From sequence record MK327931.1: DNA of 64,000 nucleotides. The stretch is one strand, 5' to 3'. Of this stretch, positions 34,293-48,287 are shown one piece after another (the first letter of the stretch is position 1; every line of letters begins with the position of its first letter). Position numbers and translations under genes: made by a program. The notes under the pieces were generated by a model. It saw only the letters and a list, made by a program, of their open reading frames with translations, was not told where the DNA came from and made no database searches. This DNA is from Escherichia phage vB_EcoM_G17.

Positions 34293-34344
34293 CTCTAGTT
34301 AAAATCAAGTATAACACACCTGAATGCTCTTGTAAAGCCATAAA

Positions 34345-34367: not shown

Positions 34368-34934
34368 TTATTTTGGTAAAACACTGTCGATGTACGCTAG
34401 AACCTCATCTCGAAGGTACGTTCCATCTATAGTTAGGTAATAGTTCATGGGAATATCACTCCCAACCTTCTCATAAATTTTCATACATGATATCACATCT
34501 TCATCACAAATGGTACTCAATTGAAAAATAACTTCATCGGTTAACGGTACGATATCATGTTTAGATAGGGGATTTGTATTTTCATTCAACACAATATTAA
34601 TCAAGTTAGGAGTATTCTTTGACGAAATATAACGATGCTTACTACGAATTACCATTCTCGATAGTGAAATACTGGAACTCCATCTTGGATCAACATCTTC
34701 ATATGATAACGATATTAACATCTCGTGAAAATCTTGAAATTTCATTGACGCATAATATGTTTTATCCTCACCGTACATACCAAATGATTTAAATTCAATA
34801 TCCCCCACTTTGTATGTATCGACATCATTATTTGAGAACTTTATTAAACTATTAATTAGTCTAATTAGAATATCATCTTTATCCATTCTTAAATAACTCC
34901 AAGTGCATGTCGTATAAATCTCTGAAGTCTTCAT
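34368..34934 (-). CDS. FQxS-family paralogue
   Basis: 188 aa; 'DEVIFQLSTIC'. Confidence 0.55.
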   Translation of the reverse strand: MKTSEIYTTCTWSYLRMDKDDILIRLINSLIKFSNNDVDTYKVGDIEFKSFGMYGEDKTYYASMKFQDFHEMLISLSYEDVDPRWSSSISLSRMVIRSKHRYISSKNTPNLINIVLNENTNPLSKHDIVPLTDEVIFQLSTICDEDVISCMKIYEKVGSDIPMNYYLTIDGTYLRDEVLAYIDSVLPK

Positions 34935-35442
34935 AGAAATCTTTTTCTTCGAGAATATTCTTTAAACTGGGAATCTCTTCCATAATTTCATCTATATCTG
35001 ATTCTATGAAAAATCCTGATGGATTATCGTAGTTTTGTAACAGATAACTGAAAGTAATAATGTAAAGAAGTTCATTAGGATTGTGAATTAAACTTAGCTG
35101 GAACATAGCTGATTCTAAATCTGATTCAGTACTAAGATCAACCCAACGTGAATTTCTATAATCAATTCGTACTTGACTTGTATTTGGATTCCATGTGAAG
35201 CAATGTGTACCAATATGACCTATACAACCAACCCTTGTACTGTCTCCGGTATCAACACTGATATCAACAAATAGTTCAATACCGATATCGGTTGATGTTA
35301 CACGACCTTTTTTCAGAAATAAATCATTATCCTTACGAAATTGTTTGGATGAAAGAGTGTCAATGATGCACATCAATGTTTTTGCAAATGCAACACAATG
35401 ACGAAATTCAAGCCTATGAAATTGGTAATCATTGATATTCAT
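34879..35442 (-). CDS. FQxS-family paralogue
   Basis: 187 aa; 'ESAMFQLSLIH'. Confidence 0.55.
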   Translation of the reverse strand: MNINDYQFHRLEFRHCVAFAKTLMCIIDTLSSKQFRKDNDLFLKKGRVTSTDIGIELFVDISVDTGDSTRVGCIGHIGTHCFTWNPNTSQVRIDYRNSRWVDLSTESDLESAMFQLSLIHNPNELLYIITFSYLLQNYDNPSGFFIESDIDEIMEEIPSLKNILEEKDFYEDFRDLYDMHLELFKNG

Positions 35443-35981
35443 AATTCAACCCTCAATATTTTATCAGCAATAGATATAACCTTATCATTGAATACATTAC
35501 CAATCTCAATCCTTATATACATAGCAGGTGGAATCTTTCCTTGTAGTGAATAATATGTTTGTATACCTAAGTACTCATTATCTGATAATGAAAATTTGAT
35601 TCTCTCCATATCAATGTCTGTTACTGGTAAATCTATCATTTCATAATGGTAGTCAACGTTTTCATTGTATATTTTATCGAAGTAATTTGAATAATCACTA
35701 CTAATGTAGATGCTATCATCACGAATAATTACTTTATAATCAGAAGGTTCAAATTTATCTTTACAGGAAAAGAATGCATCATCTATTTTCTCTTCTCTTA
35801 TGCCAAATAACATTCTACCATCATATTTTACATCAAGAATACTACCTAGTATATTAATGGTACAATGCTCATCAATATTATGATGTAATGAACGTTTTTT
35901 GTATTTTGGGTTAATGAAAATTTTCATTAATTTTATACAAATTTCAGTAATGCATTTTACATTCTCATTTTCTATGTACAT
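35439..35981 (-). CDS. hypothetical protein (180 aa)
   Basis: Minus-strand ORF in the array; motif weak. Confidence 0.45.
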   Translation of the reverse strand: MYIENENVKCITEICIKLMKIFINPKYKKRSLHHNIDEHCTINILGSILDVKYDGRMLFGIREEKIDDAFFSCKDKFEPSDYKVIIRDDSIYISSDYSNYFDKIYNENVDYHYEMIDLPVTDIDMERIKFSLSDNEYLGIQTYYSLQGKIPPAMYIRIEIGNVFNDKVISIADKILRVEL

Positions 35982-36468
35982 TAAAAGCCCTCTTTAATTC
36001 TTTTACATTTTTAATGAATACTTTCATTGCAGAAATCTCAAAAGATAATGTATTAAATTTGCAGTACTTTTTAAAGTACGACATAATATATAACATTTTG
36101 AGTTCTTTTTCTGTATAAATTAAACTGTTTTGAAAGTAACTTTCTTCGGAAATGTCCGTAAGAAAAGAATAAAATGTATTTTGCTTGTGCACAATTTTAA
36201 TACTATCAGACCAAGATTTGTATGAAACGTAATCAGTACGTGCAAAATCATATAGTGAATTAGATGTATCTGTGTATGTTTCCGAGAACACAATCTTATA
36301 TATCTTATCTTGAATTCGAGAACATATGTACCTATGGTCATCTGTCTCACTGATTGCAATGTATCTATGGAGTAAATCTTTATGAGCATTGATGAACTCA
36401 AACACTTCTAAACACTCCCTAGCGAACTTCATAGTTTCTCTGTACTTTCGGTTCATTAGTCTCTCCAA
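35965..36468 (-). CDS. FQxS-family paralogue
   Basis: 167 aa; 'EESYFQNSLIY'. Confidence 0.55.
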   Translation of the reverse strand: MERLMNRKYRETMKFARECLEVFEFINAHKDLLHRYIAISETDDHRYICSRIQDKIYKIVFSETYTDTSNSLYDFARTDYVSYKSWSDSIKIVHKQNTFYSFLTDISEESYFQNSLIYTEKELKMLYIMSYFKKYCKFNTLSFEISAMKVFIKNVKELKRAFNVHRK

Positions 36469-36869
36469 ACTTTACCAGGGAAGTGTTTCTCGTAGTACTC
36501 ATCATCACTTAACATATAATCAGGAGTTTCTACTTCTATGGTTTTGAAGATTGTTTCTGGAATGTGTGTGACTTTATTGGGTTGTACTTTATGTTCGCGT
36601 AAAACCTTCTGTATCGCTCCTAGACGTTGTAAATCGATACATGTAGGAAAGACTAAGCTGTACTGAAATAACTCATCAGGGGTCATTATAGACACATCTT
36701 TAGCTTGTTTGATTTGATAATTAGTACTAATGAATATATCAAATCCTTGTACAGCATTATAGCTTACATAGGTTGTTTTATTTTTGTCAATAGGAGCACT
36801 TAAACGATATCCATATATCCCGTGTTGGTCAACAACACAACGTTGCATAATTTTAATCATTTCTAACAT
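36456..36869 (-). CDS. FQxS-family paralogue
   Basis: 137 aa; 'PDELFQYSLVF'. Confidence 0.55.
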   Translation of the reverse strand: MLEMIKIMQRCVVDQHGIYGYRLSAPIDKNKTTYVSYNAVQGFDIFISTNYQIKQAKDVSIMTPDELFQYSLVFPTCIDLQRLGAIQKVLREHKVQPNKVTHIPETIFKTIEVETPDYMLSDDEYYEKHFPGKVWRD

Positions 36870-37215
36870 AATTTACCTCATATGTATTGTAACACCACGG
36901 TTTAACAATATCGATTTGTATATCATTTGCTTCATGAAAATGTTTAAGTACCTTCTGGTATTCCATTATTTCGTACACATCTTCAGTACTGATAGTGCTC
37001 TGCTGAAACAATTCCTCTTCTGATAAAGTACTATAATCAGGGATTTTTATTTCTGAATATATATCATTTATCTTTCCATTATATTGATAAATCTGGATAT
37101 AAAATTGATTGTATTCTGGAATATAGGTCACATAATGGTTGTGGTTGATTACATATCTTGAAACAAAGTATTCAGTACCATCAGTCATGTACTGAATTGT
37201 TGTCGTATTTTTCAT
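36853..37215 (-). CDS. FQxS-family paralogue
   Basis: 120 aa; 'LSEEELFQQSTIS'. Confidence 0.55.
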   Translation of the reverse strand: MKNTTTIQYMTDGTEYFVSRYVINHNHYVTYIPEYNQFYIQIYQYNGKINDIYSEIKIPDYSTLSEEELFQQSTISTEDVYEIMEYQKVLKHFHEANDIQIDIVKPWCYNTYEVNYVRND

Positions 37216-37675
37216 TCAAATAATCCACGCATTTATAGTATACTACTAAATCTAAAAAGAATCGTTGTTTGTATTTGTAATGATGAAGTAGTGCACCATA
37301 AAATAACATAGCATTAAGTACTTTTACATCATGAATACAAGAACCCTGAAAGTACATTTCCTCTGACATGAACACTAAATCATCATACTTAACAAATACT
37401 GCTTCTCTATAATTGTCAATATTAATCTTCAAATCAGACCCAGGGCAATATGAAATGTATCCGGCTTTGTAATGAAAGTCATTGTCATCAAAGTACTCGG
37501 CATAGATTTGATTACCTCTTTCATTAGTAAACGCAAGTCTTCCTTTGGATGAACTAAACTCATCGTATTCGAACATACCACCAAATGGGTCAGGACTTCT
37601 GAACTCCTTTGCAATGCGATAGATATTTTCTGCAAATTCTAAAACACCATCGTAATCATATTCTGTAGTAATCAT
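37181..37675 (-). CDS. FQxS-family paralogue
   Basis: 164 aa; 'EEMYFQGSCIH'. Confidence 0.55.
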   Translation of the reverse strand: MITTEYDYDGVLEFAENIYRIAKEFRSPDPFGGMFEYDEFSSSKGRLAFTNERGNQIYAEYFDDNDFHYKAGYISYCPGSDLKINIDNYREAVFVKYDDLVFMSEEMYFQGSCIHDVKVLNAMLFYGALLHHYKYKQRFFLDLVVYYKCVDYLNEKYDNNSVHD

Positions 37676-38148
37676 AAACCATTTTTCTCCAGGTACTCAA
37701 TAATACAATCGAGATTGTTCAGGTCCAAGTAGAAATGATCACTATCTGAATTTAGTTCATTTTTAAGGGCAGTGTAAATCACTGAACTGAAAACAATCCT
37801 CTCTGGATACACAGTACTGTACTGGAAGAACTCTTCTTCAGTGTTAATTTCAGCCGTATCAAATCCTTCATTTATAAGATGATGATTGTAGTATTTGAAA
37901 TTATCTGAACTTGGGAAATGGTATGAAATAAAATCACCACTTGGTACTTCATCAAGCACTCTAATACTACAAGTTGATTCATCTGAACTATAGAGTAACC
38001 CATCCATAAAGGAAAGGTATCCATTTCGTTTTTTGACTGTATGTTTGCCTACGGAAAAATCTTCAGTAACATTTGTAAGGAATTTATAAACCCTGATAAT
38101 GTCTTTTGCTATTTTTTGTGCATTGCTAAATGATAGGTCTTTGGACAT
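37672..38148 (-). CDS. FQxS-family paralogue
   Basis: 158 aa; 'EEEFFQYSTVY'. Confidence 0.55.
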   Translation of the reverse strand: MSKDLSFSNAQKIAKDIIRVYKFLTNVTEDFSVGKHTVKKRNGYLSFMDGLLYSSDESTCSIRVLDEVPSGDFISYHFPSSDNFKYYNHHLINEGFDTAEINTEEEFFQYSTVYPERIVFSSVIYTALKNELNSDSDHFYLDLNNLDCIIEYLEKNGL

Positions 38149-38207
38149 TGTGATATAACCCTTTACAATTAATATAAAGAGATTATATCACAAAGAATCG
38201 GAGGGTG

Positions 38208-38792
38208 TCAAGATGGGTTGCGAAGTTCTACCATTTCTTTCCAAACTAATTGGTAATCTTCTAAGTCCAGATAGAAGTCTTCATTCCAGTGCTCATGAAA
38301 GTACTTATACATGAATAGAACTCCTAAATCGTATGCAGGAAACAATAATGATAGTTGAAAGTAGTATTCCTGATTTAAAACTATATCAATAAACTCTAAT
38401 GTACGTATGCCACCTTTCGATGAACGTATCTCAATGTGTGAGGTATCCTTCATACTGTAACACATGAAACCACCTCTAAATTCTGGATCATATTCACATT
38501 CGAACTGCTCACTGTTGTTATAGAAATCTCTCCCACTTTCTTGATCTTTCGGTCTACGTACTGATACATGAATATTTTTATCACGGTACATTGAACGATT
38601 TAGTATTTTCAAACATTTGAACTTATCTTCTTTAATGAACTTGATAATATCAATTATATCTTGTGCTGTACTGATAGCTGATTCGAATGTATCCAACTTA
38701 AGATGATTATATTGGGTTCCAGAGTTCATTTTTTTATCTAACATATAAACCTCATAATTCATACATTTTTGATTTGAACTGCATATGACCAC
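38208..38792 (-). CDS. FQxS-family paralogue
   Basis: 194 aa; 'QEYYFQLSLLF'. Confidence 0.55.
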   Translation of the reverse strand: MVICSSNQKCMNYEVYMLDKKMNSGTQYNHLKLDTFESAISTAQDIIDIIKFIKEDKFKCLKILNRSMYRDKNIHVSVRRPKDQESGRDFYNNSEQFECEYDPEFRGGFMCYSMKDTSHIEIRSSKGGIRTLEFIDIVLNQEYYFQLSLLFPAYDLGVLFMYKYFHEHWNEDFYLDLEDYQLVWKEMVELRNPS

Positions 38793-39093
38793 CTATTTCA
38801 CATGGATAACAATTCATAATTTTGTTCAATAGAATCTGGTATTTTTTAATAACTTCTATATCAATTTTTATATTACTATTAAAAACTAATGATTCTTGAA
38901 ATAATTCCCCCTCGTCAAGTGAAGTAAAATCATTTATCTTCAAGGGTATATTGTTGCATCGCAAGGAGAATGTATTTTCATCACGAATTAAAGTATAGAA
39001 ATCATTATGTTTTTTATTATAATCAAATTTAACAAGTAGTAGTTTAATATGAGTAGCGTACATTACTTTAACTAATTCAGATTCACGTCGCAT
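38752..39093 (-). CDS. FQxS-family paralogue
   Basis: 113 aa; 'EGELFQESLVF'. Confidence 0.55.
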   Translation of the reverse strand: MRRESELVKVMYATHIKLLLVKFDYNKKHNDFYTLIRDENTFSLRCNNIPLKINDFTSLDEGELFQESLVFNSNIKIDIEVIKKYQILLNKIMNCYPCEIGGHMQFKSKMYEL

Positions 39094-39515
39094 ACAATAC
39101 CTCTCTTATGATGCAAACATTCTTGCATAATGTGTTGTATTTTTCGTAACAGAAACACATCCAGTTCATTAAAAACAGTACTGTACTGGAACATCTCTTC
39201 TTCCCCGTACTCAGTTAAATCATCAATTTCATCTCTAGAAACAGCTACAATATTAAAACCACGTGTACTACAATAACCCTTAGTAAGATAATATATGTAC
39301 TTGTACTCTCCGTTGATATCTAAGAGATCTTGTGTGATACAGAAGCTTTTGGGTGACAGTTTATCATCAGGAACCATATGCCTTGCTTGTACATAGCAAC
39401 GGATACCATCACCTATACTATATGTAATAACTTCAAATTCAATCTTCATAGGTGAATATAATCCTTTTATATTGCTCAGGTGCAGTACTGAAACGTTTGA
39501 TTGGATAATTATCAA
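39072..39515 (-). CDS. FQxS-family paralogue
   Basis: 147 aa; 'EEEMFQYSTVF'; start may be the internal Met (MKIEFE). Confidence 0.5.
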   Translation of the reverse strand: MIIIQSNVSVLHLSNIKGLYSPMKIEFEVITYSIGDGIRCYVQARHMVPDDKLSPKSFCITQDLLDINGEYKYIYYLTKGYCSTRGFNIVAVSRDEIDDLTEYGEEEMFQYSTVFNELDVFLLRKIQHIMQECLHHKRGIVCDVNLN

Positions 39516-39801
39516 AGATTCTTTTCATTTCTTTCTGGATTAAACATAAGAAATCAAAGTTACAATCGTACTTATTATCCCATACTAAACTTTCTTGGAA
39601 TAACTCATCCTCTTGCATTAGTGTAGTGTCAATTACATCTTCACGGACATAGCTATATACTTCATAGCTCTTGAAGCCATCTTCTGATAATTCTAATTCA
39701 TATGCAGCCATATCAAACATATCATCATGGTTTGTCTTCAAAGATATTAAACAAGTAACTAATTTTTTAGTTGTATAGTATGTAATACTTAATGTGTTCA
39801 T
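39439..39801 (-). CDS. FQxS-family paralogue
   Basis: 120 aa; 'EDELFQESLVW'. Confidence 0.55.
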   Translation of the reverse strand: MNTLSITYYTTKKLVTCLISLKTNHDDMFDMAAYELELSEDGFKSYEVYSYVREDVIDTTLMQEDELFQESLVWDNKYDCNFDFLCLIQKEMKRIFDNYPIKRFSTAPEQYKRIIFTYED

Positions 39802-39806
39802 TTGTT

Positions 39807-40409
39807 TTATACCTCAGTATATAGCTTACAATAGCTTTCATCGAAATTACAAACACTTCTCAAGTACTGACACAGGTCATTGAAAATATTTACATTTGAT
39901 ATATATACATTATCAAATTCTGTTCGTTGAAAGAATGTATACATAGAATTTGTAATATATCGCATTGCATCTTCACGTCCCATAGTTATATCATTTGTGA
40001 ACATTGCATCTTCATCAGTACTGATGTGTTCTATTTTAAATGATTTCATAAATGGAATACTCTTTCCTAGGGCATAACCATCACCATATGATGCTTCTAC
40101 TGCACCTTTAGAATAAAGGAATTGATATAAGTCCGAATCACGATTATAAAAAGTACGACATACGGAGGAACATAATTTATTATCTATATGAAATAAAAAT
40201 CTTTTAGCATTTTTGTCTAATACTATTCGCAATGCATCACTCTCTAGAAATATATCACCATCAAGCATAAATGAGAACTGTACTAATGCTTTTTCTAAAT
40301 CCGCTCGTTTGTGATAAATCATTTCCTGCATATATATAATATCATTTGCTAATTTCTTAAAAAACAAATGCACATCTGCACTACAACATTTATTTGCATT
40401 TATTGACAT
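39807..40409 (-). CDS. hypothetical protein (200 aa)
   Basis: Minus-strand ORF in the array; motif not evident. Confidence 0.5.
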   Translation of the reverse strand: MSINANKCCSADVHLFFKKLANDIIYMQEMIYHKRADLEKALVQFSFMLDGDIFLESDALRIVLDKNAKRFLFHIDNKLCSSVCRTFYNRDSDLYQFLYSKGAVEASYGDGYALGKSIPFMKSFKIEHISTDEDAMFTNDITMGREDAMRYITNSMYTFFQRTEFDNVYISNVNIFNDLCQYLRSVCNFDESYCKLYTEV

Positions 40410-40960
40410 AATAGTTCCTTATACATATGATGTACTTTACAAATCTCATTATAGTATTTCATATCAATGTCATTTGTATTAAAAACGGAAACAGACAATA
40501 CTGCTAACTTATCAATTAAGTAATTATTATCGGCGTACTGTTTTAACTTATTGAACATATAGATGCATTTTATACTTAATTCATCATGCAACACACTGTT
40601 CTGAAAAATATTCTCTTCAGTATTAGGAGATAAGTAATCTTCAATTATATACGATAAACTACTATCGCAATCTTTATAGATTGAAATTGATGGATGTAAT
40701 GTGTCATACATTACACTAAACAGATCACCGTCATATGTGGATATTAAACTATTATTGGAAACAGTAGGATGATAATATTTCAGTACTGAAAACTTTGAAC
40801 AATCAGTGCAGTAAAAATGATCCATCCCTCGACGACTTTCGTATGAGAATAGTTTACTTGTATATTCAATCCCTTTGGTGCGACGGATTGTTTCATGCAT
40901 TTCTGCACATTGCATTAAAATTACCATACGTTCAAACGCAAGATCTAAATCATCGTACAT
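40400..40960 (-). CDS. FQxS-family paralogue
   Basis: 186 aa; 'EENIFQNSVLH'. Confidence 0.55.
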   Translation of the reverse strand: MYDDLDLAFERMVILMQCAEMHETIRRTKGIEYTSKLFSYESRRGMDHFYCTDCSKFSVLKYYHPTVSNNSLISTYDGDLFSVMYDTLHPSISIYKDCDSSLSYIIEDYLSPNTEENIFQNSVLHDELSIKCIYMFNKLKQYADNNYLIDKLAVLSVSVFNTNDIDMKYYNEICKVHHMYKELLCQ

Positions 40961-41141
40961 AACGGATATCCTTCTTCAACGAATTAATATATTCCAAAAT
41001 AACTTGTTCCTGATATTGGGTTCCCAAGTACATCAGTACTTTCAACTCTTTGAATTCAGTACTATATGAGTCTGTTTGCATCATTCTAGTAGAATATATA
41101 TTGAATAGTTTAGCAATATCATCTTGGTCTATTATTTTCAT
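40950..41141 (-). CDS. LGTNYQE-family small protein (copy embedded in the FQxS array)
   Basis: 63 aa; 'MYLGTQYQEQ'. Confidence 0.5.
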   Translation of the reverse strand: MKIIDQDDIAKLFNIYSTRMMQTDSYSTEFKELKVLMYLGTQYQEQVILEYINSLKKDIRYVR

Positions 41142-41337
41142 TAACCCTCTTCTGTATTAGTTCCTGTAAGTGCTGAATATAACCCTTCATTGCAACATCC
41201 TGTTTGTTAGAGCCAACGAAGAACAAGAGCTTAAAGTCATGGTAATCCATTTTTGGTTTAGTAGTGAACCATATGTCCCACACTGCACTCACAGTTCTCA
41301 TGTATTCAATTCGATTAAATGTTTTTGAATACTTCAT
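41119..41337 (-). CDS. LGTNYQE-family small protein (divergent, embedded copy)
   Basis: 72 aa; 'FFVGSNKQDV'. Confidence 0.45.
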   Translation of the reverse strand: MKYSKTFNRIEYMRTVSAVWDIWFTTKPKMDYHDFKLLFFVGSNKQDVAMKGYIQHLQELIQKRVNENNRPR

Positions 41338-41851
41338 CGATGTTCATTGCCAATAAGTTAATATACAAATTACTGTTAAATGCTATCTGCAATTCCATAT
41401 AGAACTGAATGATTGCATAGTCAGGGTCAGTACACGATAGTTGAAAACACTGTTCGTCGAATGCATTGTAATTGTACTTAGGGATGTGAATTTCACGCTT
41501 CAAATCAGGTTGCCCCCACTTCATCGCGTACACACCAATGTTATTGTTCTTTTTCCTTTTCTTAAATGTTAATTGTTGAATATTTCCTGCGTTATCCAGG
41601 AAAATAGAATTATTCGACACAGGTGCACCAATAGAAAACAATGATGTATCAATTACGTGTTTCTCACGTACATCACACTTCTGAAATGCACCTGTACCCT
41701 GTAATACACGATGAAAATTGTACTTCTCATTAACAACAGTACTAGGATCAATTAAACCAGTACTGCATTTTTTGAGTACTGGTACGATGATACGAATCTT
41801 TTTTGATAAATCTTGTAATGCATCAAAGTCATTGATGTTAACTTTCATCAC
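41315..41851 (-). CDS. FQxS-family paralogue
   Basis: 178 aa; 'DEQCFQLSCTD'. Confidence 0.5.
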   Translation of the reverse strand: MMKVNINDFDALQDLSKKIRIIVPVLKKCSTGLIDPSTVVNEKYNFHRVLQGTGAFQKCDVREKHVIDTSLFSIGAPVSNNSIFLDNAGNIQQLTFKKRKKNNNIGVYAMKWGQPDLKREIHIPKYNYNAFDEQCFQLSCTDPDYAIIQFYMELQIAFNSNLYINLLAMNIDEVFKNI

Positions 41852-42297
41852 TCAAATGTGGCCTCTTCAGTAGTAACAAAATTGATTAGTGTATCCAGTT
41901 CAGCAGTGTCAAGATAAAATACATCCAGTACTGATTTCTGATATATTACACTGAATGTGCATAGATTGTCAAGCGTTCCTTGTTCATAAACAGTACTACC
42001 CTGGAAGTACCCTTCTTCAGTACTCAGGGATAAAATGTCTGAAATTTTAAAAGATTCTTCAGTCGCATGTCTTTCTATATTAACTAAATGTCCGTTTCGG
42101 TTCAATGAAATATAATCGTATGCTAACTCAATTAGACTATAATTATCCGCATTAGTGTCAAATAAAGCGACAATTTTTCGTCTCAATCTCTCATCGTGAT
42201 CATGGTTTTCATCAGCTAAGTATTCAGGATTTTCTTTGAAGAACTGAACAACTTTTAGAATATCATTTGCTTTCTTGATTGCACTTTCGTAACTCAT
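41848..42297 (-). CDS. FQxS-family paralogue
   Basis: 149 aa; 'EEGYFQGSTVY'. Confidence 0.55.
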   Translation of the reverse strand: MSYESAIKKANDILKVVQFFKENPEYLADENHDHDERLRRKIVALFDTNADNYSLIELAYDYISLNRNGHLVNIERHATEESFKISDILSLSTEEGYFQGSTVYEQGTLDNLCTFSVIYQKSVLDVFYLDTAELDTLINFVTTEEATFE

Positions 42298-42602
42298 AAT
42301 AATTCAACCACTCCATCTCTAAAGTACATATAACTACCACCATTGGATACCTTGAATTCTATTGTCCCCAATAATATATTATATTTTTTTATTTCACATG
42401 TAGTACTGGTAGTGTAAGGCTCACCATCTCCTAAGTACATTGACATATGACATAGAACTTTTCTACCTGCATATTTCTCTTCAAACGATTGTTCAAAACT
42501 ATGCATAATTTGATTTAAAGCTGAAATGTAATTAATAAAGTCAGGTATTTCTGTCAATGAATTATAAACCGTACAAAGTGAATCAAATTCATTTTTAGTC
42601 AT
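42294..42602 (-). CDS. small protein, KYxGKxV-like family (embedded in the FQxS array)
   Basis: 102 aa; 'EKYAGRKVLCH'. Confidence 0.45.
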   Translation of the reverse strand: MTKNEFDSLCTVYNSLTEIPDFINYISALNQIMHSFEQSFEEKYAGRKVLCHMSMYLGDGEPYTTSTTCEIKKYNILLGTIEFKVSNGGSYMYFRDGVVELL

Positions 42603-42916
42603 TATATTTCTATCTCAATGTAATCCTGTGTGATTAAGTAATCCCAATGATACTTCACCTGCTTTTGTAATTCAATTAACGTAAAGAAGTTGATCGATTT
42701 ATCCCATACGAGCGATTCCTGGAAAATAAATGATTCATGTTCATCGTAATAATCACACTCTAAAAAATCAGGTATATATTCACTATCGTGAATGTATTCA
42801 ACAAACGAACTAGCTTGGCATTTCTTTACTACTAGTAATAATGAATTATCATGATCAAACAGATACAATAAACTAATTTCACCAGGGACGTACTGAACAC
42901 TGAATAAGTTTTTCAT
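42602..42916 (-). CDS. FQxS-family paralogue
   Basis: 104 aa; 'ESFIFQESLVW'. Confidence 0.55.
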   Translation of the reverse strand: MKNLFSVQYVPGEISLLYLFDHDNSLLLVVKKCQASSFVEYIHDSEYIPDFLECDYYDEHESFIFQESLVWDKSINFFTLIELQKQVKYHWDYLITQDYIEIEI

Positions 42917-43365
42917 TCTATACCTTCTGGATCTTTACGAAGTTCTTCGAAATCCAAATAAAATCGAGGACAGTTAACACTCTTTAAGTACCACATAATA
43001 ACTAATGCTTCAAGTACTTCATCATCGTAAACAGTACTGTTTTGGAAGTAATACTCTTCACTATCCCACGGACCATCCAGTACTTCATAATTCAAAATTA
43101 ATGGTTTTTTGCGATTAATAAAACGAATGCTACCATTTTCAACATAACTAATAAATTCTGCATCTCTATTGTATTCAGAAAACGATATAGGACTATTGGA
43201 ATTCAACCCAAGAATAACCCTTACACCCACGGAGTTATTATACATTTCATCTTTGTAGTAGTTGCCGTTCTCGGCTTTGTACACTTCTTTGAACTTTCCT
43301 GCCTTTATATCGTCAAAGTATCCATGTAGTTCTTTTGCTTTTTCAAGAGCACTTTGTAATGACAT
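42913..43365 (-). CDS. FQxS-family paralogue (EEYYFQ subgroup)
   Basis: 150 aa; 'GPWDSEEYYFQNSTVYDDEVLEALVIMWYLKS'. Confidence 0.6.
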   Translation of the reverse strand: MSLQSALEKAKELHGYFDDIKAGKFKEVYKAENGNYYKDEMYNNSVGVRVILGLNSNSPISFSEYNRDAEFISYVENGSIRFINRKKPLILNYEVLDGPWDSEEYYFQNSTVYDDEVLEALVIMWYLKSVNCPRFYLDFEELRKDPEGIE

Positions 43366-43831
43366 TACCTTCTCCTACAGTATTCTCTACATATTCATAA
43401 TCAAAATAGAAACTACTGGAGTCAATACTTTTGAAATACCACATAATTACAATAACATCTAATTCTTCTTCATTGTACAACGTACTATTCTGGAAGTAAT
43501 ATTCTTCACTATCCCACGGTCCTTCCAGTACTGAATAAGGAATGATAGTGTCATCAGCATCACTATCTGTGTTGTAGATGGTAATATCTTCATTACGGCA
43601 ATAACTAATGTACTGATTGTACATATGATATTCACAGTTATCACTGTCACCAGTATCAGTGTGCAGTACTAATGTTTCTGCACATATCTCGGACTCGTCA
43701 TAATCGTCACGGTCTTTTACAAAAAATTCAGTATCAGATGTTTTATATACACCTGGTACTGAACCTTCCTGTACCATAATCATGTACTCATGAATCTTCT
43801 TTGCTTCTTTCAATGCACTTTGTAATGACAT
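43343..43831 (-). CDS. FQxS-family paralogue (EEYYFQ subgroup)
   Basis: 162 aa; 'GPWDSEEYYFQNSTLYNEEELDVIVIMWYFKS'. Confidence 0.6.
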   Translation of the reverse strand: MSLQSALKEAKKIHEYMIMVQEGSVPGVYKTSDTEFFVKDRDDYDESEICAETLVLHTDTGDSDNCEYHMYNQYISYCRNEDITIYNTDSDADDTIIPYSVLEGPWDSEEYYFQNSTLYNEEELDVIVIMWYFKSIDSSSFYFDYEYVENTVGEGNVITKCS

Positions 43832-44274
43832 TACAAATCCCCTGTACTTAAATATTCACATGCTCCCCAGTCAAGAAAGAATGGTTCAAAATTCAATTCC
43901 TTAAAGTACCACAACACAACCAAGGAATCAAGAATTTCTTGGTTAAAAATGAGACTCTGTTGGAAGTAATACTCTTCAGTACCCCACGGGCCATCAAGTA
44001 CCCCGAAGTCAACAGGTGTATTTGTTGTGTCAAAAGTAATCTTAGTACCTGGAATATATACAAAAAAATTAGTATATTGACTACATGAAGAGTACTGTAT
44101 AGTATTGTCTTTATCCTGTCCCATAAGTAAAATATCATCAGAGTATGTCTTTATACCTGATAGATAATACTCATCACCAAATGCACTTACTTTATCACCA
44201 TAGAACCCACTTTTTATGTTATCGTGGAAGTGATGTATTCTGTGTGCTAGTTCAAGTGCACTTGCTAAACTCAT
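43831..44274 (-). CDS. FQxS-family paralogue (EEYYFQ subgroup)
   Basis: 147 aa; 'GPWGTEEYYFQQSLIFNQEILDSLVVLWYFKE'. Confidence 0.6.
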   Translation of the reverse strand: MSLASALELAHRIHHFHDNIKSGFYGDKVSAFGDEYYLSGIKTYSDDILLMGQDKDNTIQYSSCSQYTNFFVYIPGTKITFDTTNTPVDFGVLDGPWGTEEYYFQQSLIFNQEILDSLVVLWYFKELNFEPFFLDWGACEYLSTGDL

Positions 44275-44741
44275 ATATCCTCTTTAATAACTCGTAGTAG
44301 ATCCAAGTCCAAATAGAAGCTAGGACAATCTGTATTATTAAAGTACCACAGAATGACAAGCTTGTCAAGTACATCTTCCTCGTAGATAGTATTCTGCTGG
44401 AAGTAGTACTCTTCACTTCCCCAGTCATTATCCAGTACTGAATACGGAAGATGTTTCTCTGCTGCACCAGATATAATGTCAGAATCTTGTATTAAAATAT
44501 CAGCATCACGACAGAAGTACATGTAATTATCTTCCAAATTAACATCACACCCATTGAGTGTTGTTTCAGAAGAATCTAAGTTTTCTTCATACATGTGAAT
44601 GTACTCACTACTGTCATCGTATCTCATTCGACAATATGATTTACCTTCCTTGAATAGATATCCATTAAGACAATTTGCTACAATTTCTTTGCTGCATAAA
44701 TCAATTAACTTCGCAATCTCTAATGCTCTTTCTAAACTCAT
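44271..44741 (-). CDS. FQxS-family paralogue (EEYYFQ subgroup)
   Basis: 156 aa; 'NDWGSEEYYFQQNTIYEEDVLDKLVILWYFNN'. Confidence 0.6.
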   Translation of the reverse strand: MSLERALEIAKLIDLCSKEIVANCLNGYLFKEGKSYCRMRYDDSSEYIHMYEENLDSSETTLNGCDVNLEDNYMYFCRDADILIQDSDIISGAAEKHLPYSVLDNDWGSEEYYFQQNTIYEEDVLDKLVILWYFNNTDCPSFYLDLDLLRVIKEDI

Positions 44742-44742
44742 T

Positions 44743-45234
44743 TCAACCCCTGTTAATACCGTTATCTACAGTTTTCTTTACGTATTTGTAATCGAAATAG
44801 AAGTTCCCAGAACCAATACTTTTAAAGTACCACATAATTATAATAACATCAAGTACTTCATTATCATATACAGTACTTTGTTGGAAGTAATACTCTTCAC
44901 TATCCCACGGACCTTCCAGTACTTCACTCGGAATTATAATGTCATTGGAATCGCTGTCAGTACTGTTGATGGTATCTGTATCATTAATATAGACCATGTA
45001 CTCATTATGCATATTAATGAAGCATTCATAATCATTAGGGTCGGTATCTAGTATGCACGTTTCTGTATCCAGTACGCACGTTTCTGTATCTGAGCAGTCA
45101 TTATAAAGGAGGTTATCCGGTACATAATATTGAGTACTTGTGTCTTTGAAAACACCGTAAACTGAACCTTCTTTTGCCATATTCATGTACTCATGAATCT
45201 TCTTTGCTTTTTCCAATGAACTCTGTAATGTCAT
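44743..45234 (-). CDS. FQxS-family paralogue (EEYYFQ subgroup)
   Basis: 163 aa; 'GPWDSEEYYFQQSTVYDNEVLDVIIIMWYFKS'. Confidence 0.6.
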   Translation of the reverse strand: MTLQSSLEKAKKIHEYMNMAKEGSVYGVFKDTSTQYYVPDNLLYNDCSDTETCVLDTETCILDTDPNDYECFINMHNEYMVYINDTDTINSTDSDSNDIIIPSEVLEGPWDSEEYYFQQSTVYDNEVLDVIIIMWYFKSIGSGNFYFDYKYVKKTVDNGINRG

Positions 45235-45243
45235 TTTATAATC

Positions 45244-45603
45244 TCATATATTGAAATAATAATTATTCGTTCTTGATGGGGATGGATTAAATACGTTTTC
45301 TTTTTCAAATCTCTTCATTTCATTTTGCAAAGAAACCATTTCTTCAAATGTACAGGAGTACTTATTCTTATCAAACACTAATGCAGCCTGAAATAGTTCC
45401 CCATCGTCCAGTACTGTATAATCTATAAGACTCTCAGATTCATAGTCATAGTCGTCATGTGATACATGAATAAATTTAAAACAAGAATCTTTGTAATGCA
45501 TATATAAACTCAACTCATGTTCCGAGTCGCCCTTAATAAGATTACAGCACAAGTCCCATCCTTTAGGTAACTTATAATAGTACATAGAATAATCATATGT
45601 CAT
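45244..45603 (-). CDS. FQxS-family paralogue (short subgroup)
   Basis: 119 aa; 'YTVLDDGELFQAALVFDKNKYSCTFEEMVSLQNEMK'. Confidence 0.6.
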   Translation of the reverse strand: MTYDYSMYYYKLPKGWDLCCNLIKGDSEHELSLYMHYKDSCFKFIHVSHDDYDYESESLIDYTVLDDGELFQAALVFDKNKYSCTFEEMVSLQNEMKRFEKENVFNPSPSRTNNYYFNI

Positions 45604-45956
45604 TCTTGAATTCCTAAATTGAATTTGTATTCTTGATTAATACTTGCATTGGGTTTATGCAAAGCAGCATACTCTTTCATTTCATTTTGTATTGCAATAA
45701 CTTCTTCAAATGTACACAAGTACTTCTTATCAAATACTAATGATTCTTGGAATAGTTCTGCGGTATCCATTAATGTATAGTCCGGCATATCTTGGTGTGG
45801 ATACTGTAATGAACTGTAATCAATGAATGTAAATTTACCCTGAGTGTAATGAATATACTCATTTGCACTGTGCATTAAATCACCTTTGTTTAAATTACAA
45901 AAGTACTGATAACTGTGCTTGAAAGTATGTACTGATATTAAAAAATCAAATTCCAT
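45600..45956 (-). CDS. FQxS-family paralogue (short subgroup)
   Basis: 118 aa; 'DTAELFQESLVFDKKYLCTFEEVIAIQNEMK'. Confidence 0.6.
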   Translation of the reverse strand: MEFDFLISVHTFKHSYQYFCNLNKGDLMHSANEYIHYTQGKFTFIDYSSLQYPHQDMPDYTLMDTAELFQESLVFDKKYLCTFEEVIAIQNEMKEYAALHKPNASINQEYKFNLGIQE

Positions 45957-45959
45957 CAG
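45878..45959. repeat. 82-bp direct repeat, copy 1 (covers the 5' end of gene 45600..45956)
   Basis: Matches 46406..46487 with 2 mismatches by eye ('AAATCACCTTTGTTTAAATTACAAAAGTACTGATAACTGTGCTT...AAAAAATCAAATTCCATCA'). Confidence 0.7.
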
Positions 45960-46327
45960 TACTCAACCTCTACATAAATAGATTCAGGAAACTTAGTCAT
46001 ATAATCTTCTGGATAGTTCTGCATTACTTTGATCATTTCTGCCTGTGTAGCACGGACGTATTCAATTGGTGCTCCTGGTAAATTCCAGACAGTACTTTCC
46101 TGAAAGAATTCCTCTTCTGACAGTACTGTCAGATTTACAAAATCATTACGGTAATTTTTTGAATCATCATATGTGAAGATTTTAAAAGACCCATTTTCAT
46201 ATAGTACAAGAACAAAATGGGAGAATTTTTGTAATGCACCACCAAGGCTTTCCACGACCGCATGATTCAGTGTACAGATGACCTCTTTTTTCCTCATACC
46301 GAATTGAATTCTAATTTCTTTTTTCAT
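45956..46327 (-). CDS. FQxS-family paralogue
   Basis: 123 aa; 'LSEEEFFQESTVW'. Confidence 0.55.
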   Translation of the reverse strand: MKKEIRIQFGMRKKEVICTLNHAVVESLGGALQKFSHFVLVLYENGSFKIFTYDDSKNYRNDFVNLTVLSEEEFFQESTVWNLPGAPIEYVRATQAEMIKVMQNYPEDYMTKFPESIYVEVEY

Positions 46328-46329
46328 AA

Positions 46330-46490
46330 AATCTCCTTCAGATTAGTACTGAATTTGTACAGAATATTAGAACTGTATACAGCCTCTGTATCTGTATCCA
46401 TAATCAAATCACCTTTGTTTAAATTACAAAAGTACTGATAACTGTGCTTAAAAGAATGTACTGATATTAAAAAATCAAATTCCATCACAC
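46330..46490 (-). pseudogene. truncated duplicate of the 5' end of gene 45600..45956 (~53 codons)
   Basis: My translation: 'MEFDFLISVHSFKHSYQYFCNLNKGDL...' then diverges and stops; reproduces the N-terminus of the downstream paralogue; contains direct-repeat copy 2. Confidence 0.45.
46406..46487. repeat. 82-bp direct repeat, copy 2
   Basis: Near-identical to 45878..45959 (2 mismatches by eye), 528 bp apart. Confidence 0.7.
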
Positions 46491-46862
46491 TTCCCCTAGA
46501 TTGAAATGATTACAAAAATCATCTTCACCAGTACTGCACCAGATATCTATACATTCCCTGTGAATACATTTAATTCTACGCTGTAATTCAATCATCTCTT
46601 CTAATGTACAGATGTACTTCTTATCAAATACTAATGCCGCCTGAAACAGTGCAGCATCATCAAGTACTGTATAGTCCAACATCTCGGTTGCTTTACCCCT
46701 AAACCCAGTACTAAAATCCATCAAATAAAAGTCAGCATTCCAGTACTTTAAAATCTTGTCCCTAGCGTAGTTTAAATCACCCTTGTATAAGTTAGAGTGC
46801 GTAACTAACTCACCAGTGTACATCCATGTCCTTGCACAAAATTCATTATATTTTATTTCCAT
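46485..46862 (-). CDS. FQxS-family paralogue (short subgroup)
   Basis: Track ORF extends to 47048 through a low-complexity leader; probable start is Met 'MEIKYNEF' at 46862. 'LDDAALFQAALVFDKKYICTLEEMIELQ'. Confidence 0.55.
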   Translation of the reverse strand: MEIKYNEFCARTWMYTGELVTHSNLYKGDLNYARDKILKYWNADFYLMDFSTGFRGKATEMLDYTVLDDAALFQAALVFDKKYICTLEEMIELQRRIKCIHRECIDIWCSTGEDDFCNHFNLGEV

Positions 46863-47060
46863 CTTAATCTCTACTATAATTAATAAGGTAAACTCCAATA
46901 TAAGGAGAACGTTCGGCGGCGGGGTATTTTTTGTTTCAAGAAACATGAACTGTACTCTGAAAAACACAATATAAAACTTTATATTAAACATATACCTTAG
47001 CATGTTTTTCAGCGGAAATTTTTTTGACCCCCCCCTGCGGCCTGTCAAAATGAAACGTCT
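46863..47060. other. ~200-bp non-coding island with G/C-rich tracts
   Basis: 'GAACGTTCGGCGGCGGGG' and 'TTGACCCCCCCCTGCGGCC' in an AT-rich context; no credible ORF. Confidence 0.35.
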
Positions 47061-47285
47061 CTATTTATTCAGCCTAGAAACCTTGATTTCTTCAATCCTT
47101 TTCATTGCACAAAGCCTTCGACTCGTCCTCTCGTATATATTCAATACTCGCTGTAATGCATTATCTGTATTATCTGCAACTGCAATCTGAACCAAATATG
47201 TATCCTTCAAAATAGAATCCATCATGAATTCAAAACCTTTCACACTAAAGCAATATGCCACTTCCGGCTCTTCAAACGTAATCAT
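47061..47285 (-). CDS. small hypothetical protein (74 aa)
   Basis: Minus-strand ORF; 'DNALQRV' resembles the unlisted small ORF at 47465..47641. Confidence 0.45.
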   Translation of the reverse strand: MITFEEPEVAYCFSVKGFEFMMDSILKDTYLVQIAVADNTDNALQRVLNIYERTSRRLCAMKRIEEIKVSRLNK

Positions 47286-47502
47286 AATTCCAATCCCCTA
47301 TTCCCTCTAACCTTCTAAGATATCTTGCGTAAATTATTTCGAAATATCTGTGCAACGAAATTACGGATTGCTCATAATCATCATTCCTGTACATTGTGCA
47401 TGTCAGAAAATCATTTAACCCAAAATCTAAACTGCACTTGAACTTCTCCTTTGCAATATCACTATTACTTGCACTTTTCATAATAAACCCTTTGTACCGC
47501 AT
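47272..47502 (-). CDS. small hypothetical protein (76 aa)
   Basis: Minus-strand ORF; start uncertain. Confidence 0.4.
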   Translation of the reverse strand: MRYKGFIMKSASNSDIAKEKFKCSLDFGLNDFLTCTMYRNDDYEQSVISLHRYFEIIYARYLRRLEGIGDWNYDYV

Positions 47503-47663
47503 TGGTGTACTGTGAACTCAGCACCACTAATAGGTAATCTATATTGTAAGCACGATTTCCTCGTTGACTAGCACGGCTGGAATAAAGAATATTATCCACA
47601 TATGTATTGAACTGATCTTCAAATAACTCTTTCATCAGCATTATACCATCACATAATCATACA

Positions 47664-48287
47664 TCATACATTAACAACTTTATCGATGTAATCTTCTAAC
47701 ATATCAATATATCTGGTATTGGTTCTAACTAAAAGGTATGCAAATCCAGAAAACTCCTGTGTATAATGCTTTACAGCGTACATACAACGAAGCTTATCAT
47801 TGTCATACATTGTACTGTACTGAAACAAACTCTCGTCTGATAGCTCTAATAACGCTTGGGCTTCACTTCTCGTGAACTTCATAGGGTCATGTACTGCATC
47901 ACAAAAACAAACCTGTGTCTCGCTATTGAAACCCTGTGATAGATATATACCTTCACACTCTGAACGCACCGATACTGCATTATAACTATGTGTTGCCCCC
48001 ATCATATCTGAACTCAAAACTAAAATCAACCCATTTTTATTTTTAATCAACAAATCTGACTTAAGGGATTTGATCTCCGTATGGGAAATATCACCAAATC
48101 TTCCTGGGACTTCAAACTTATCAACGTTGTATACAATCTTTTGTACTTGCTCTTTTAAACGCTTAATTGCACTTCTGTCTTTTTCTAATGTATCTAATAA
48201 ACTCATTGAACTCATTGTACTTTCCTTACATATTTGTACCGAACAAAACGGAACTTTGAATGCCATTAATCGACACTTCATGTACAT
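47664..48287 (-). CDS. FQxS-family paralogue
   Basis: 207 aa; 'LSDESLFQYSTMY'. Confidence 0.55.
   Translation of the reverse strand: MYMKCRLMAFKVPFCSVQICKESTMSSMSLLDTLEKDRSAIKRLKEQVQKIVYNVDKFEVPGRFGDISHTEIKSLKSDLLIKNKNGLILVLSSDMMGATHSYNAVSVRSECEGIYLSQGFNSETQVCFCDAVHDPMKFTRSEAQALLELSDESLFQYSTMYDNDKLRCMYAVKHYTQEFSGFAYLLVRTNTRYIDMLEDYIDKVVNV

What the first reader, a model, noticed from the sequence alone, without database searches (positions are those of the whole stretch)
40950..42602. Members of the other small-protein families embedded inside the FQxS array
Two LGTNYQE-type genes (40950-41337) and one KYxGKxV-type gene (42294-42602) interrupt the FQxS array, while two FQxS genes (54370-55706) sit among LGTNYQE genes at the array boundary. 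The families are interleaved by recombination rather than each being a clean block.
Basis: seen in the sequence. Interest (0 to 1): 0.4.

Follow-up and report, generated by a model that had tools for sequence, protein, structure and literature searches.

The report
Stray genes inside phage gene arrays
In a giant E. coli phage, three unrelated families of small genes form long tandem arrays next to the genome end, a few members of each family sit inside another family's array, and one of these is a recent exact gene-for-gene swap; this is ordinary mosaic phage evolution, and what the proteins do is unknown.

Summary
The window is Escherichia phage Sharanji (Asteriusvirus, 350 kb jumbo phage). 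All genes lie on the minus strand and all are annotated as hypothetical.

Held-out HMMs with shuffled controls confirm the family assignments:
- 40950-41141 and 41119-41337 belong to the LGTNYQE family.
- 42294-42602 is a distant but significant KYxGKxV-type gene.
- 54370-55706 holds three FQxS genes, not two, plus an unrelated 81-aa membrane-type ORF.

Profile-profile comparison finds no relationship between the three families.

Comparative genomics splits the strays by age. The LGT pair has positional orthologues in every lineage checked, so it is old. The KYG gene occurs in only 20 of 35 Asteriusvirus records. In SP27 (same species as PBECO4) and Ecwhy_1 the slot holds an FQxS paralogue, and homology breaks exactly at the start and stop codons.

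One-gene indels, a relocated gene, dimorphic alleles and region-to-region phylogenetic conflict all point to cassette exchange by recombination.

The arrays start about 70 bp inside the 20-kb terminal repeat. They are tightly packed and have sigma-70-like promoters in the rare gaps, so they are probably early genes. No function can be assigned: Pfam, PDB sequence and fold searches all found nothing.

The parts
40950..41141 (-). Embedded LGTNYQE-family gene 1 (63 aa, 'LGTQYQE'); Sharanji gp579
   Evidence: Held-out LGT HMM E 6.7e-12. phrog_4148 E 4.4e-17. Positional orthologues in Ecwhy_1 (87% aa) and A4.
41119..41337 (-). Embedded LGTNYQE-family gene 2 (72 aa, degenerate motif 'VGSNKQD'); Sharanji gp580
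   Evidence: Held-out LGT HMM E 6.8e-8. phrog_4148 E 4.7e-4. 97% aa identity to Ecwhy_1, with 6 nt and 2 aa differences. A4 orthologue forms a clade with it in the tree.
41315..41851 (-). 178-aa unclassified gene that travels with the LGT pair in all three lineages
   Evidence: Reciprocal best hits of 93% (Ecwhy_1) and 39% (A4), always next to the LGT genes. No hit to the FQxS full or core HMMs.
41848..42297 (-). FQxS gene (149 aa) just downstream of the swap slot; paralogue of the gene that fills the slot in SP27 and Ecwhy_1
   Evidence: FQS HMM E 1.2e-26. Shared N-terminus MSYESAIKKAN versus MYESDLKHAEE.
42294..42602 (-). KYxGKxV-type gene (102 aa, 'EKYAGRKV'); clade-specific cassette that replaces an FQxS paralogue; Sharanji gp583
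   Evidence: Held-out KYG HMM 25.2 bits against decoys of at most 12.8 bits. Found in only 20 of 35 Asteriusvirus records. No other homologue in 5.8 billion or 1.84 billion protein libraries. Homology breakpoints at 42297 and 42600.
42602..42916 (-). Short-type FQxS gene upstream of the slot ('FIFQESLVWD')
   Evidence: FQ-core HMM 25.3 bits. Alignment A2.
39072..39449 (-). FQxS gene that is a one-gene indel, absent from SP27 and Ecwhy_1
   Evidence: Alignment to SP27 jumps from window 39080 to 39436. Ecwhy_1 annotation skips the 121Q gp384 homologue. No reciprocal best hit.
27008..53234 (-). Main FQxS stretch: about 39 of the 42 family members in the window, plus about 20 unclassified ORFs
   Evidence: Invariant F-Q in alignment A2. 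AF2 model has pLDDT 92.
53583..53975 (-).
   Evidence: Recruited to the KYG HMM at E below 1e-3. Orthologues in Ecwhy_1 (69%), A4 (56%) and E9.1.
53941..54395 (-). Two LGT genes (53941-54207, 54177-54395) on the FQxS side of the border
   Evidence: Held-out LGT HMM E 3.2e-7 and 5.3e-12. They are each other's closest paralogues.
54370..55706 (-). Three short-type FQxS genes (54370-54696, 54992-55396, 55362-55706) and one 81-aa membrane-type ORF (54687-54932)
   Evidence: Held-out FQS HMM E 3.9e-8, 1.1e-9 and 2.8e-11. The 81-aa ORF is 98% and 86% conserved in Ecwhy_1 and A4.
55696..62082 (-). Main LGTNYQE array, 29 tandem genes of 52-96 aa
   Evidence: AF2 four-helix model has pLDDT 96.
6770..16556 (-). 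Home region of the KYxGKxV-type family: 8 detected members scattered among other genes
   Evidence: KYG2 HMM.
54962..54990 (-). Sigma-70-like promoter (TTGACA-17-TATAGT, with TG) in a 59-bp intergenic gap at the border
   Evidence: This is a consensus match only.
38182..38211 (-). Perfect sigma-70 consensus (TTGACA-18-TATAAT, with TG) in a 59-bp gap inside the FQxS stretch
   Evidence: This is a consensus match only.
62083..62301 (.). 219-bp gap that contains the inner edge of the direct terminal repeat (about window 62151), just upstream of the first LGT gene
   Evidence: In E9.1, positions 1-20107 equal the right end at 100% identity. Mapping that edge onto the window gives about 62151.

Best explanation
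The finding lies in the long, one-directional, terminal-repeat-proximal block of phage Sharanji. This block carries three unrelated, lineage-restricted multigene families of small proteins:
- LGT: 33 copies, predicted four-helix protein.
- FQxS: at least 42 copies, a predicted alpha/beta fold with no match among solved structures.
- KYG: at least 10 copies.

Each family grew mainly by tandem duplication and divergence, which explains the blocks. The blocks are not clean because single genes behave as cassettes bounded by overlapping stop/start codons (ATGA, TAATG). These cassettes are inserted, deleted, relocated or replaced. Homologous recombination between co-infecting relatives in the conserved flanks then spreads the variants.

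The KYG-type gene at 42294-42602 is a recent event of this kind. It replaced an FQxS paralogue in the PBECO4/121Q/Sharanji sub-clade. The two LGT genes at 40950-41337 are old residents that predate the divergence of the genus lineages sampled.

Shown: family membership, that the families are unrelated, the swap and its breakpoints, the indels, and the mosaic identity pattern.

Inferred: the molecular mechanism of the original insertions (illegitimate recombination followed by selection for intact, translationally coupled neighbours). Also inferred: that the arrays are early, host-RNA-polymerase-transcribed genes whose products bind host or defence targets.
For: Family membership was tested with held-out HMMs and decoys and with an independent PHROG model. 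hhalign finds no relationship between the families.

The swap:
- tblastn finds the KYG gene in only 20 of 35 records.
- Homology to Ecwhy_1 and SP27 ends at 42297 and resumes at 42600, exactly at the codon overlaps. Those phages carry a 149-157-aa FQxS gene there.

Other cassette events:
- One-gene indel at 39081-39435.
- Extra LGT and FQxS genes at the border in Ecwhy_1 and A4.
- 45956-46327 is 93% identical to an A4 gene that sits in a different slot.

Mosaicism:
- Orthologue identity between Sharanji and A4 ranges from 23% to 93% from one gene to the next.
- LGT gene 60184-60441 is 95-100% identical in some near-identical phages and 59.5% in others.
- SP27 is closer than 121Q in window 1-8000 (99.5% against 95.5%) but further in 40-44 kb (87.5% against 97.4%).

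Age of the LGT pair: orthologue clades hold the same position in three lineages.

Early-gene inference:
- The array starts about 70 bp inside the terminal-repeat edge.
- 38 of about 95 junctions overlap by 4 or 1 nt.
- Most gaps of 30 bp or more hold extended -10 sigma-70-like sites.
- No gp41x-gp52x protein appears in the phAPEC6 virion proteome.
- The equivalent region of the related phage CBB was proposed to be early (PMC5259590).
Against: - No donor for the KYG gene was found. Its only relatives are distant paralogues in the same genome, so the direction and source of the swap rest on which phages carry it.
- No conserved DNA motif flanks the cassettes that could explain the precise breakpoints. 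The precision may simply reflect selection.
- Promoter-like sites are not enriched overall in the region (106 found against 120 expected). Only their placement in gaps is suggestive.
- There are no expression or functional data for any member.
- The nearest-paralogue relationships of the embedded LGT genes are unresolved (bootstrap at most 97 of 200), so their origin cannot be reconstructed.
Confidence: 0.7

Rival explanations
1. The embedded ORFs only resemble the other families by a short chance motif and are really diverged FQxS genes or orphans. On this view there is no interleaving.
For: The second LGT gene has a degenerate motif (VGSNKQD). The KYG gene scores only 25 bits, and PHROGs places it in its own family.
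Against: Held-out HMM scores are two to four times the best of thousands of decoys. The alignments span most of each protein, not only the motif. The independent phrog_4148 model hits both LGT genes. None of the three hits the FQxS HMMs.
Confidence: 0.05
2. The three families share an ancestor, and the strays are local copies that drifted toward another family's sequence. This would be in-situ divergence without any gene movement.
For: All three are small, AT-rich, tandem and lie in one transcription block. Each motif sits where one predicted secondary-structure element ends and the next begins.
Against: hhalign probabilities are 0.05-0.2% for all three pairs. The predicted folds differ: four helices for LGT against helix, seven strands and helices for FQxS. 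The KYG slot holds a bona fide FQxS gene in sister phages.
Confidence: 0.03
3. The placement is functional rather than accidental. The embedded LGT or KYG genes work with their FQxS neighbours, for example as partner or regulator pairs in one operon, and selection holds them there.
For: The LGT pair plus the 178-aa gene have kept the same position in three diverged lineages. An LGT-LGT-KYG group also sits beside FQxS genes at the border in all lineages. The genes overlap, which suggests translational coupling.
Against: The KYG gene is dispensable at its slot, since 15 of 35 records lack it. Border composition varies between lineages. Position can be conserved simply because nothing has disrupted it.
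Confidence: 0.15
4. The pattern is an assembly or annotation artefact of repetitive arrays.
For: The Sharanji record has a 77-bp end overlap typical of a short-read assembler. The arrays are paralogous.
Against: The paralogues are only about 15-40% identical in protein, so they are not repeats for an assembler. The same order is found in more than 30 independently sequenced phages.
Confidence: 0.01

Closest known systems
Hyperplastic regions and PeSL-mediated modular shuffling in T4-type phages (Arbiol et al. 2010, PMC2839356; Comeau et al. 2014, PMC4122927)
   Same: Closely related phages differ by insertion, deletion or replacement of single small early genes of unknown function. Breakpoints fall at gene borders, and the variable genes are concentrated in particular regions.
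   Different: Here the swapped cassette has no flanking early-promoter or stem-loop motif. The junctions are overlapping stop/start codons with no intergenic DNA. The variable genes also belong to very large paralogous families, which is not the usual T4 picture.
Putative early region of Rak2-like phage CBB (Buttimer et al. 2017, PMC5259590)
   Same: CBB is a related jumbo phage group. It has a long stretch of short hypothetical ORFs with RpoD-like promoters next to a roughly 22-kb terminal repeat, which was proposed to be the early, host-takeover region. FQxS-fold proteins occur in RaK2, GAP32, Serratia phage BF and Yersinia phage fHe-Yen9-04.
   Different: That paper lists only 22 paralogous ORFs and does not describe these families or their interleaving. 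By BLAST the LGT family was found only in Asteriusvirus.
Terminal-repeat-associated early gene modules of T5 (pre-early genes) and SPO1 (host-takeover module). Recalled from my own knowledge, not tested here.
   Same: Many small genes sit next to or inside a long direct terminal repeat, are read from strong host-type promoters, and enter the cell first.
   Different: The arrays here lie just inside the unique region, not in the repeat. Entry polarity and expression timing are unknown for Asteriusvirus.
Terminal multigene families of African swine fever virus (MGF110/360/505) and poxvirus 'genomic accordions'. Recalled from my own knowledge.
   Same: Several unrelated paralogue families lie near the genome ends, are partly interleaved, and vary in copy number between strains through recombination.
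   Different: Those are eukaryotic viruses with no sequence or fold relationship to these families. An immune-evasion role is established there and only guessed here.
Lineage-specific expansion of a zinc ribbon (about 35 copies) in Bacillus phage G (Iyer et al. 2021, PMC7824862)
   Same: A jumbo phage carries tens of copies of one small protein.
   Different: It is a different fold and phage. No interleaving or cassette exchange was described.

Membership tests
LGTNYQE family (phrog_4148) | Significant match to a family profile that was built without the candidate | tested here: met
   40950-41141 scores E 6.7e-12 and 41119-41337 scores E 6.8e-8. The best decoy scores 9.1 bits. phrog_4148 gives 4.4e-17 and 4.7e-4.
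LGTNYQE family (phrog_4148) | Motif L-G-T-x-x-Q-E at the turn before the last helix; T, Q and a downstream L are at least 90% conserved | tested here: met
   40950-41141 has LGTQYQE. 41119-41337 has VGSNKQD, which keeps G and Q and has conservative T-to-S and E-to-D changes. See the alignments.
LGTNYQE family (phrog_4148) | Four-helix fold | not tested
   Only the core member 58869-59099 was modelled (pLDDT 96). The embedded genes align over their full length but were not modelled.
FQxS family | Held-out profile match plus the invariant F-Q pair, preceded by acidic residues | tested here: met
   54370-54696, 54992-55396 and 55362-55706 score E 3.9e-8 to 2.8e-11. F-Q is invariant in all 39 aligned members.
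KYxGKxV-type family | Held-out profile match | tested here: met
   25.2 bits, E 4.8e-7. The next non-member scores 13.5 bits and decoys at most 12.8 bits.
KYxGKxV-type family | Recognised as one family by an external classification | tested here: not met
   PHROGs places every member in a separate family. The embedded gene is phrog_11429. There is no Pfam family.
KYxGKxV-type family | Recent intragenomic copy of an array member | tested here: not met
   The closest paralogue is 29% identical. tblastn at E 0.01 finds no paralogue.
T4-type PeSL modular shuffling | Variable genes flanked by a conserved early promoter plus stem-loop motif | tested here: not met
   The junctions at 42297 and 42600 are ATGA and TAATG codon overlaps with no intergenic DNA. 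The start contexts show no conserved junction sequence beyond an A-rich ribosome-binding region.
T4-type PeSL modular shuffling | Single-gene insertion, deletion or replacement between close relatives, with breakpoints at gene borders | tested here: met
Terminal-repeat-proximal early / host-takeover module (T5, SPO1, CBB-like) | Position next to a long direct terminal repeat, in one orientation | tested here: met
   E9.1 has a 20,107-bp direct terminal repeat. Its inner edge maps to window about 62151, and the first LGT gene ends at 62082. All genes are on the minus strand.
Terminal-repeat-proximal early / host-takeover module (T5, SPO1, CBB-like) | Host sigma-70 promoters | tested here: inconclusive
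   Strong consensus sites with TG extension occupy most gaps of 30 bp or more. Overall counts are not above those of shuffled sequence.
Terminal-repeat-proximal early / host-takeover module (T5, SPO1, CBB-like) | Early expression and an effect on the host | not testable with these tools
   A literature search for an Asteriusvirus transcriptome returned nothing relevant.

The most novel reading that the evidence does not exclude
The three arrays (at least 85 genes, about 45 kb, roughly an eighth of the genome) may form a terminal-proximal, fast-turnover arsenal of early binder or inhibitor proteins built on three private scaffolds. One of these, the FQxS scaffold, has a predicted fold with no match among solved structures. 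On this reading the repertoire is reshuffled one cassette at a time between co-infecting phages, as in the multigene families of large eukaryotic DNA viruses. Individual paralogues would neutralise different host defence or housekeeping targets.
Probability: 0.3. Interest if true: 0.6.

Novelty: new member of a known kind. Interest (0 to 1): 0.33.

Why it matters
Mosaic exchange of small early genes is a familiar feature of large lytic phages, so the interleaving itself is not surprising.

The useful by-products are:
- A clean definition of three large uncharacterised families in Asteriusvirus, two of them with confident structure models that match no solved structure.
- A naturally occurring, codon-exact allele swap (KYG gene versus FQxS gene in one slot) between phages of the same species.
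- The location of the arrays right at the inner edge of the terminal repeat.

Together these give concrete handles for testing whether such arrays are host-takeover or anti-defence repertoires, and how gene cassettes move without intergenic recombination signals.

Tried and rejected
- Apparent 926-bp insertion in 121Q, BF17 and others. This was a BLAST joining artefact caused by paralogous N-termini. The 121Q gene order is identical.
- Donor of the KYG gene. The word-indexed 5.8-billion search and the exhaustive 1.84-billion phmmer search returned only the gene itself, plus short spurious stretches in long repetitive proteins.
- A profile search with the FQxS alignment found only Asteriusvirus-like sequences, with no names or domains.
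- Common origin of the families, including the idea that long FQxS proteins are a KYG-like N-domain plus a short FQxS domain. hhalign rejected this.
- Segmental duplication linking the embedded LGT pair to the border LGT pair. Nearest-paralogue bootstraps are weak and inconsistent in gene order, so this is left open.
- Proteolytic processing at the TEV-like E-x-x-Y-F-Q-G/S motif. This is rejected as unlikely because the motif lies in a confidently folded helix.
- The 178-aa gene 41315-41851 as a diverged FQxS member (it has 'CFQLS'). The full and core HMMs do not support this.
- Literature on paralogue families or transcriptomes of Asteriusvirus. Nothing specific was found.
Full report
**Identity of the window.**
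The window is 100% identical to Escherichia phage Sharanji (OR545507.1, genus Asteriusvirus, 350,079 bp). It runs across the arbitrary start of that record. Window positions up to 46449 equal record position minus 303,630. From about 46373 onward they equal record position plus 46,372. The two record ends overlap by 77 bp. Every gene is on the minus strand and every one in the region is annotated as 'hypothetical protein'.

**Checking the observation: clustering.**
An unbiased all-against-all phmmer clustering of 157 minus-strand ORFs gave four clusters:
- An FQxS cluster of 38 members, including 54370-54696, 54992-55396 and 55362-55706.
- An LGT cluster of 33 members, including 40950-41141, 41119-41337, 53941-54207 and 54177-54395.
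- A small cluster joining 42294-42602 with 7791-8042 and 10737-10997.
- A five-member cluster at 18528-19937.

**Checking the observation: held-out profiles.**
I then built profiles that excluded the genes under test.
- LGT. A profile from 27 core genes scores the two embedded genes at 38.8 and 26.0 bits. The best unrelated real gene scores 5.1 bits and the best of 3,140 shuffles 9.1 bits. phrog_4148, an external model, agrees.
- FQxS. A 35-gene profile scores the three border genes at 27-37 bits, with the best decoy at 15.4 bits. All carry the F-Q pair that is invariant in a 39-sequence alignment.
- KYG. This family is much more diverged. A two-sequence profile gave only 14.3 bits. A 29-sequence profile built from Sharanji, Ecwhy_1 and A4, with 42294-42602 held out, gives 25.2 bits (E 4.8e-7). 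The next non-member scores 13.5 bits, 10,101 decoys at most 12.5 bits, and 5,000 shuffles of the query at most 12.8 bits.

First, 54370-55706 holds three FQxS genes plus an unrelated 81-aa ORF. Second, the border also contains two LGT genes (53941-54395) and a second KYG-type gene (53583-53975).

In transcription order, the 85 classified genes change family 11 times. The minimum possible is 2, and random orderings give about 50.

**Are the families really different?**
Profile-profile comparison of the three alignments gives probabilities below 1% for every pair. AlphaFold2 models built from the paralogue alignments are confident and unlike each other:
- FQxS 42913-43365: an N-terminal helix, seven strands, then helices (pLDDT 92).
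- LGT 58869-59099: four helices (pLDDT 96).

The strays are therefore foreign to the array they sit in.

**How old are the strays? The LGT pair.**
I compared Sharanji with progressively more distant Asteriusvirus genomes: 121Q (97% nucleotide identity), SP27 (about 88-91% here), Ecwhy_1 (about 80%), and A4 (mostly unalignable at the DNA level).

The LGT pair, together with the adjacent 178-aa gene, is present at the same place in all of them. In a family tree, each embedded gene forms an orthologue clade with its positional counterparts from Ecwhy_1 and A4. The pair is under purifying selection: 41119-41337 differs from Ecwhy_1 by 6 nt and 2 aa. It is therefore ancient. Its relationship to other paralogues is unresolved, so how it got there cannot be reconstructed.

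**How old are the strays? The KYG gene.**
tblastn finds this gene in only 20 of the 35 Asteriusvirus records, always at 96% aa identity or more. Neither the 5.8-billion-protein index nor an exhaustive phmmer search of 1.84 billion representatives finds any other homologue.

In SP27 (classified in the same species as PBECO4) and in Ecwhy_1, DNA homology to Sharanji ends at window 42297 and resumes at 42600. These positions are exactly the ATGA and TAATG stop/start overlaps that bound the gene. The slot is filled by a 149-157-aa FQxS gene that is a paralogue of the next gene downstream. This is a codon-exact gene-for-gene replacement that is polymorphic within a species-level group.

**More signs of cassette turnover and mosaicism.**
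- Gene 39072-39449 is a one-gene indel.
- Ecwhy_1 and A4 have an extra LGT gene between the border FQxS genes. The number of FQxS genes there also differs between the lineages.
- 45956-46327 is 93% identical to an A4 gene located in a different slot.
- Orthologue identity between Sharanji and A4 swings between 23% and 93% from one gene to the next.
- LGT gene 60184-60441 is 95-100% identical in some phages but 59.5% in others that are otherwise 99.5-99.8% identical to Sharanji in window 40000-44000.
- SP27 is closer to Sharanji than 121Q in window 1-8000 (99.5% against 95.5%) but much further in 40-44 kb (87.5% against 97.4%).

These patterns are what recombination between co-infecting relatives produces.

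**Mechanism of movement.**
In T4-type phages such shuffling is mediated by promoter/stem-loop cassettes called PeSLs (PMC2839356, PMC4122927). I looked for an equivalent and found none. The junctions of the swapped cassette have no intergenic DNA. Of about 95 junctions in the arrays, 38 are 4-nt or 1-nt overlaps. The start contexts share only an A-rich ribosome-binding region.

My reading, which is inference, has two steps. Original insertions arise by illegitimate recombination and survive only when they leave the tightly coupled neighbours intact. Homologous recombination in the conserved flanks then spreads them.

**Genomic context and likely role.**
Phage E9.1 carries both copies of a 20,107-bp direct terminal repeat. 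Its inner edge maps to window about 62151, in the 219-bp gap just upstream of the first LGT gene. The Sharanji paper reports a 20,668-bp repeat (PMC11895373). No member of the three families lies in the repeat.

From the genome end, the order is therefore: repeat, LGT array, mixed border, FQxS stretch, miscellaneous genes, then the KYG region and enzymes. All are read in one direction.

Most of the intergenic gaps of 30 bp or more contain sigma-70-like sites with a TG extension. One is a perfect consensus at 38182-38211, and another scores 11 of 12 at 54962-54990. Such sites are not enriched overall, however.

None of the phAPEC6 homologues (gp432c, gp433c, gp436c and their neighbours) appears in the published virion proteome (PMC7247149). 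The equivalent stretch of short ORFs in the related phage CBB was proposed to be the early, host-takeover region (PMC5259590).

I therefore think these are early, non-structural proteins. Each family keeps a conserved scaffold and otherwise varies widely in sequence, so they may act as binders or inhibitors of host or defence components. This is inference at roughly even odds. No homology-based function exists: Pfam, PHROGs, PDB sequence profiles and Foldseek against PDB found nothing. The FQxS fold recurs only in uncharacterised proteins of Rak2-like jumbo phages.

**Verdict.**
The phenomenon is a new instance of a known kind, namely modular mosaicism of early accessory genes, so it is of modest interest in itself. 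The more interesting possibility is that these arrays form a terminal, cassette-shuffled arsenal comparable to the multigene families of large eukaryotic DNA viruses. That remains open and can be tested by experiment.

Noticed in passing
window 41848-42297, 37181-37675, 51847-52413 and other FQxS genes: The family motif often reads E-E-x-Y/F-F-Q-G-S (for example EEGYFQGS and EEMYFQGS), which matches the TEV/NIa protease recognition pattern E-x-x-Y-x-Q-G/S. In the AF2 model it lies in a short, confidently folded helix (residues 103-109), so cleavage seems unlikely.
   Followed up: partly
L011 681-5472 (E9.1 record 342680-347471), outside the window: A fourth tandem array of about 22 genes of roughly 60 aa sits just inside the right terminal repeat. 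It is interrupted by a 229-aa gene (L011 2684-3373) carrying 'EEEFMYSTVIDNPELY', an FQxS-like motif with M in place of Q.
   Followed up: no
window 60184-60441: This LGT gene is dimorphic among near-identical phages. It is 95-100% aa identical in PBECO4, slurp01, the SD phages and CRJP21, but 59.5% in phAPEC6, SHEFM2K, E9.1, BF17 and others.
   Followed up: partly
window 46373-46449: The two ends of the Sharanji GenBank record overlap by 77 bp, as happens with an assembler k-mer overlap. The record start falls inside the FQxS stretch, so it is not a physical genome end.
   Followed up: partly
window 62083-62301 (about 62151): By homology to E9.1, the inner edge of the roughly 20-kb direct terminal repeat falls here. 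Window 62151-64000 therefore belongs to the repeat, and the LGT array begins about 70 bp inside the unique region.
   Followed up: yes
window 50980-51046: A terminator-like hairpin (51046-51025) is followed by a promoter-like site (51008-50980) in the 52-bp gap between two FQxS genes. This is the only terminator-promoter pair seen in 38-57 kb. The -10 element abuts the annotated start codon.
   Followed up: no
window 54687-54932: An 81-aa ORF with an N-terminal hydrophobic helix sits among the border FQxS genes, directly downstream of a strong promoter-like site. It is 98% conserved in Ecwhy_1 and 86% in A4, far more than its neighbours in A4.
   Followed up: no
window 14656-15345 and 15342-15920: Two larger genes in the KYG region carry FQ-type motifs (EEHFQLMMM, PEHFQISTLYD) and score marginally with the FQxS profiles: 13.5 and 11.3 bits against a best decoy of 11.3. 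15342-15920 joined the FQxS cluster by phmmer. They may be FQxS strays in the third region.
   Followed up: partly
window 42913-45234: Five consecutive long-type FQxS genes share an 'MSLxSALExAK' N-terminus and patches of 70-88% nucleotide identity, which suggests a younger tandem sub-expansion. A4 has four of them, two of which are 92-93% aa identical to Sharanji while the flanking genes are 27-38% identical.
   Followed up: partly
window 18528-19937: A separate five-member tandem family of 88-103-aa proteins ('NDIQFTYK...') forms its own phmmer cluster. It falls just below the KYG profile threshold.
   Followed up: no
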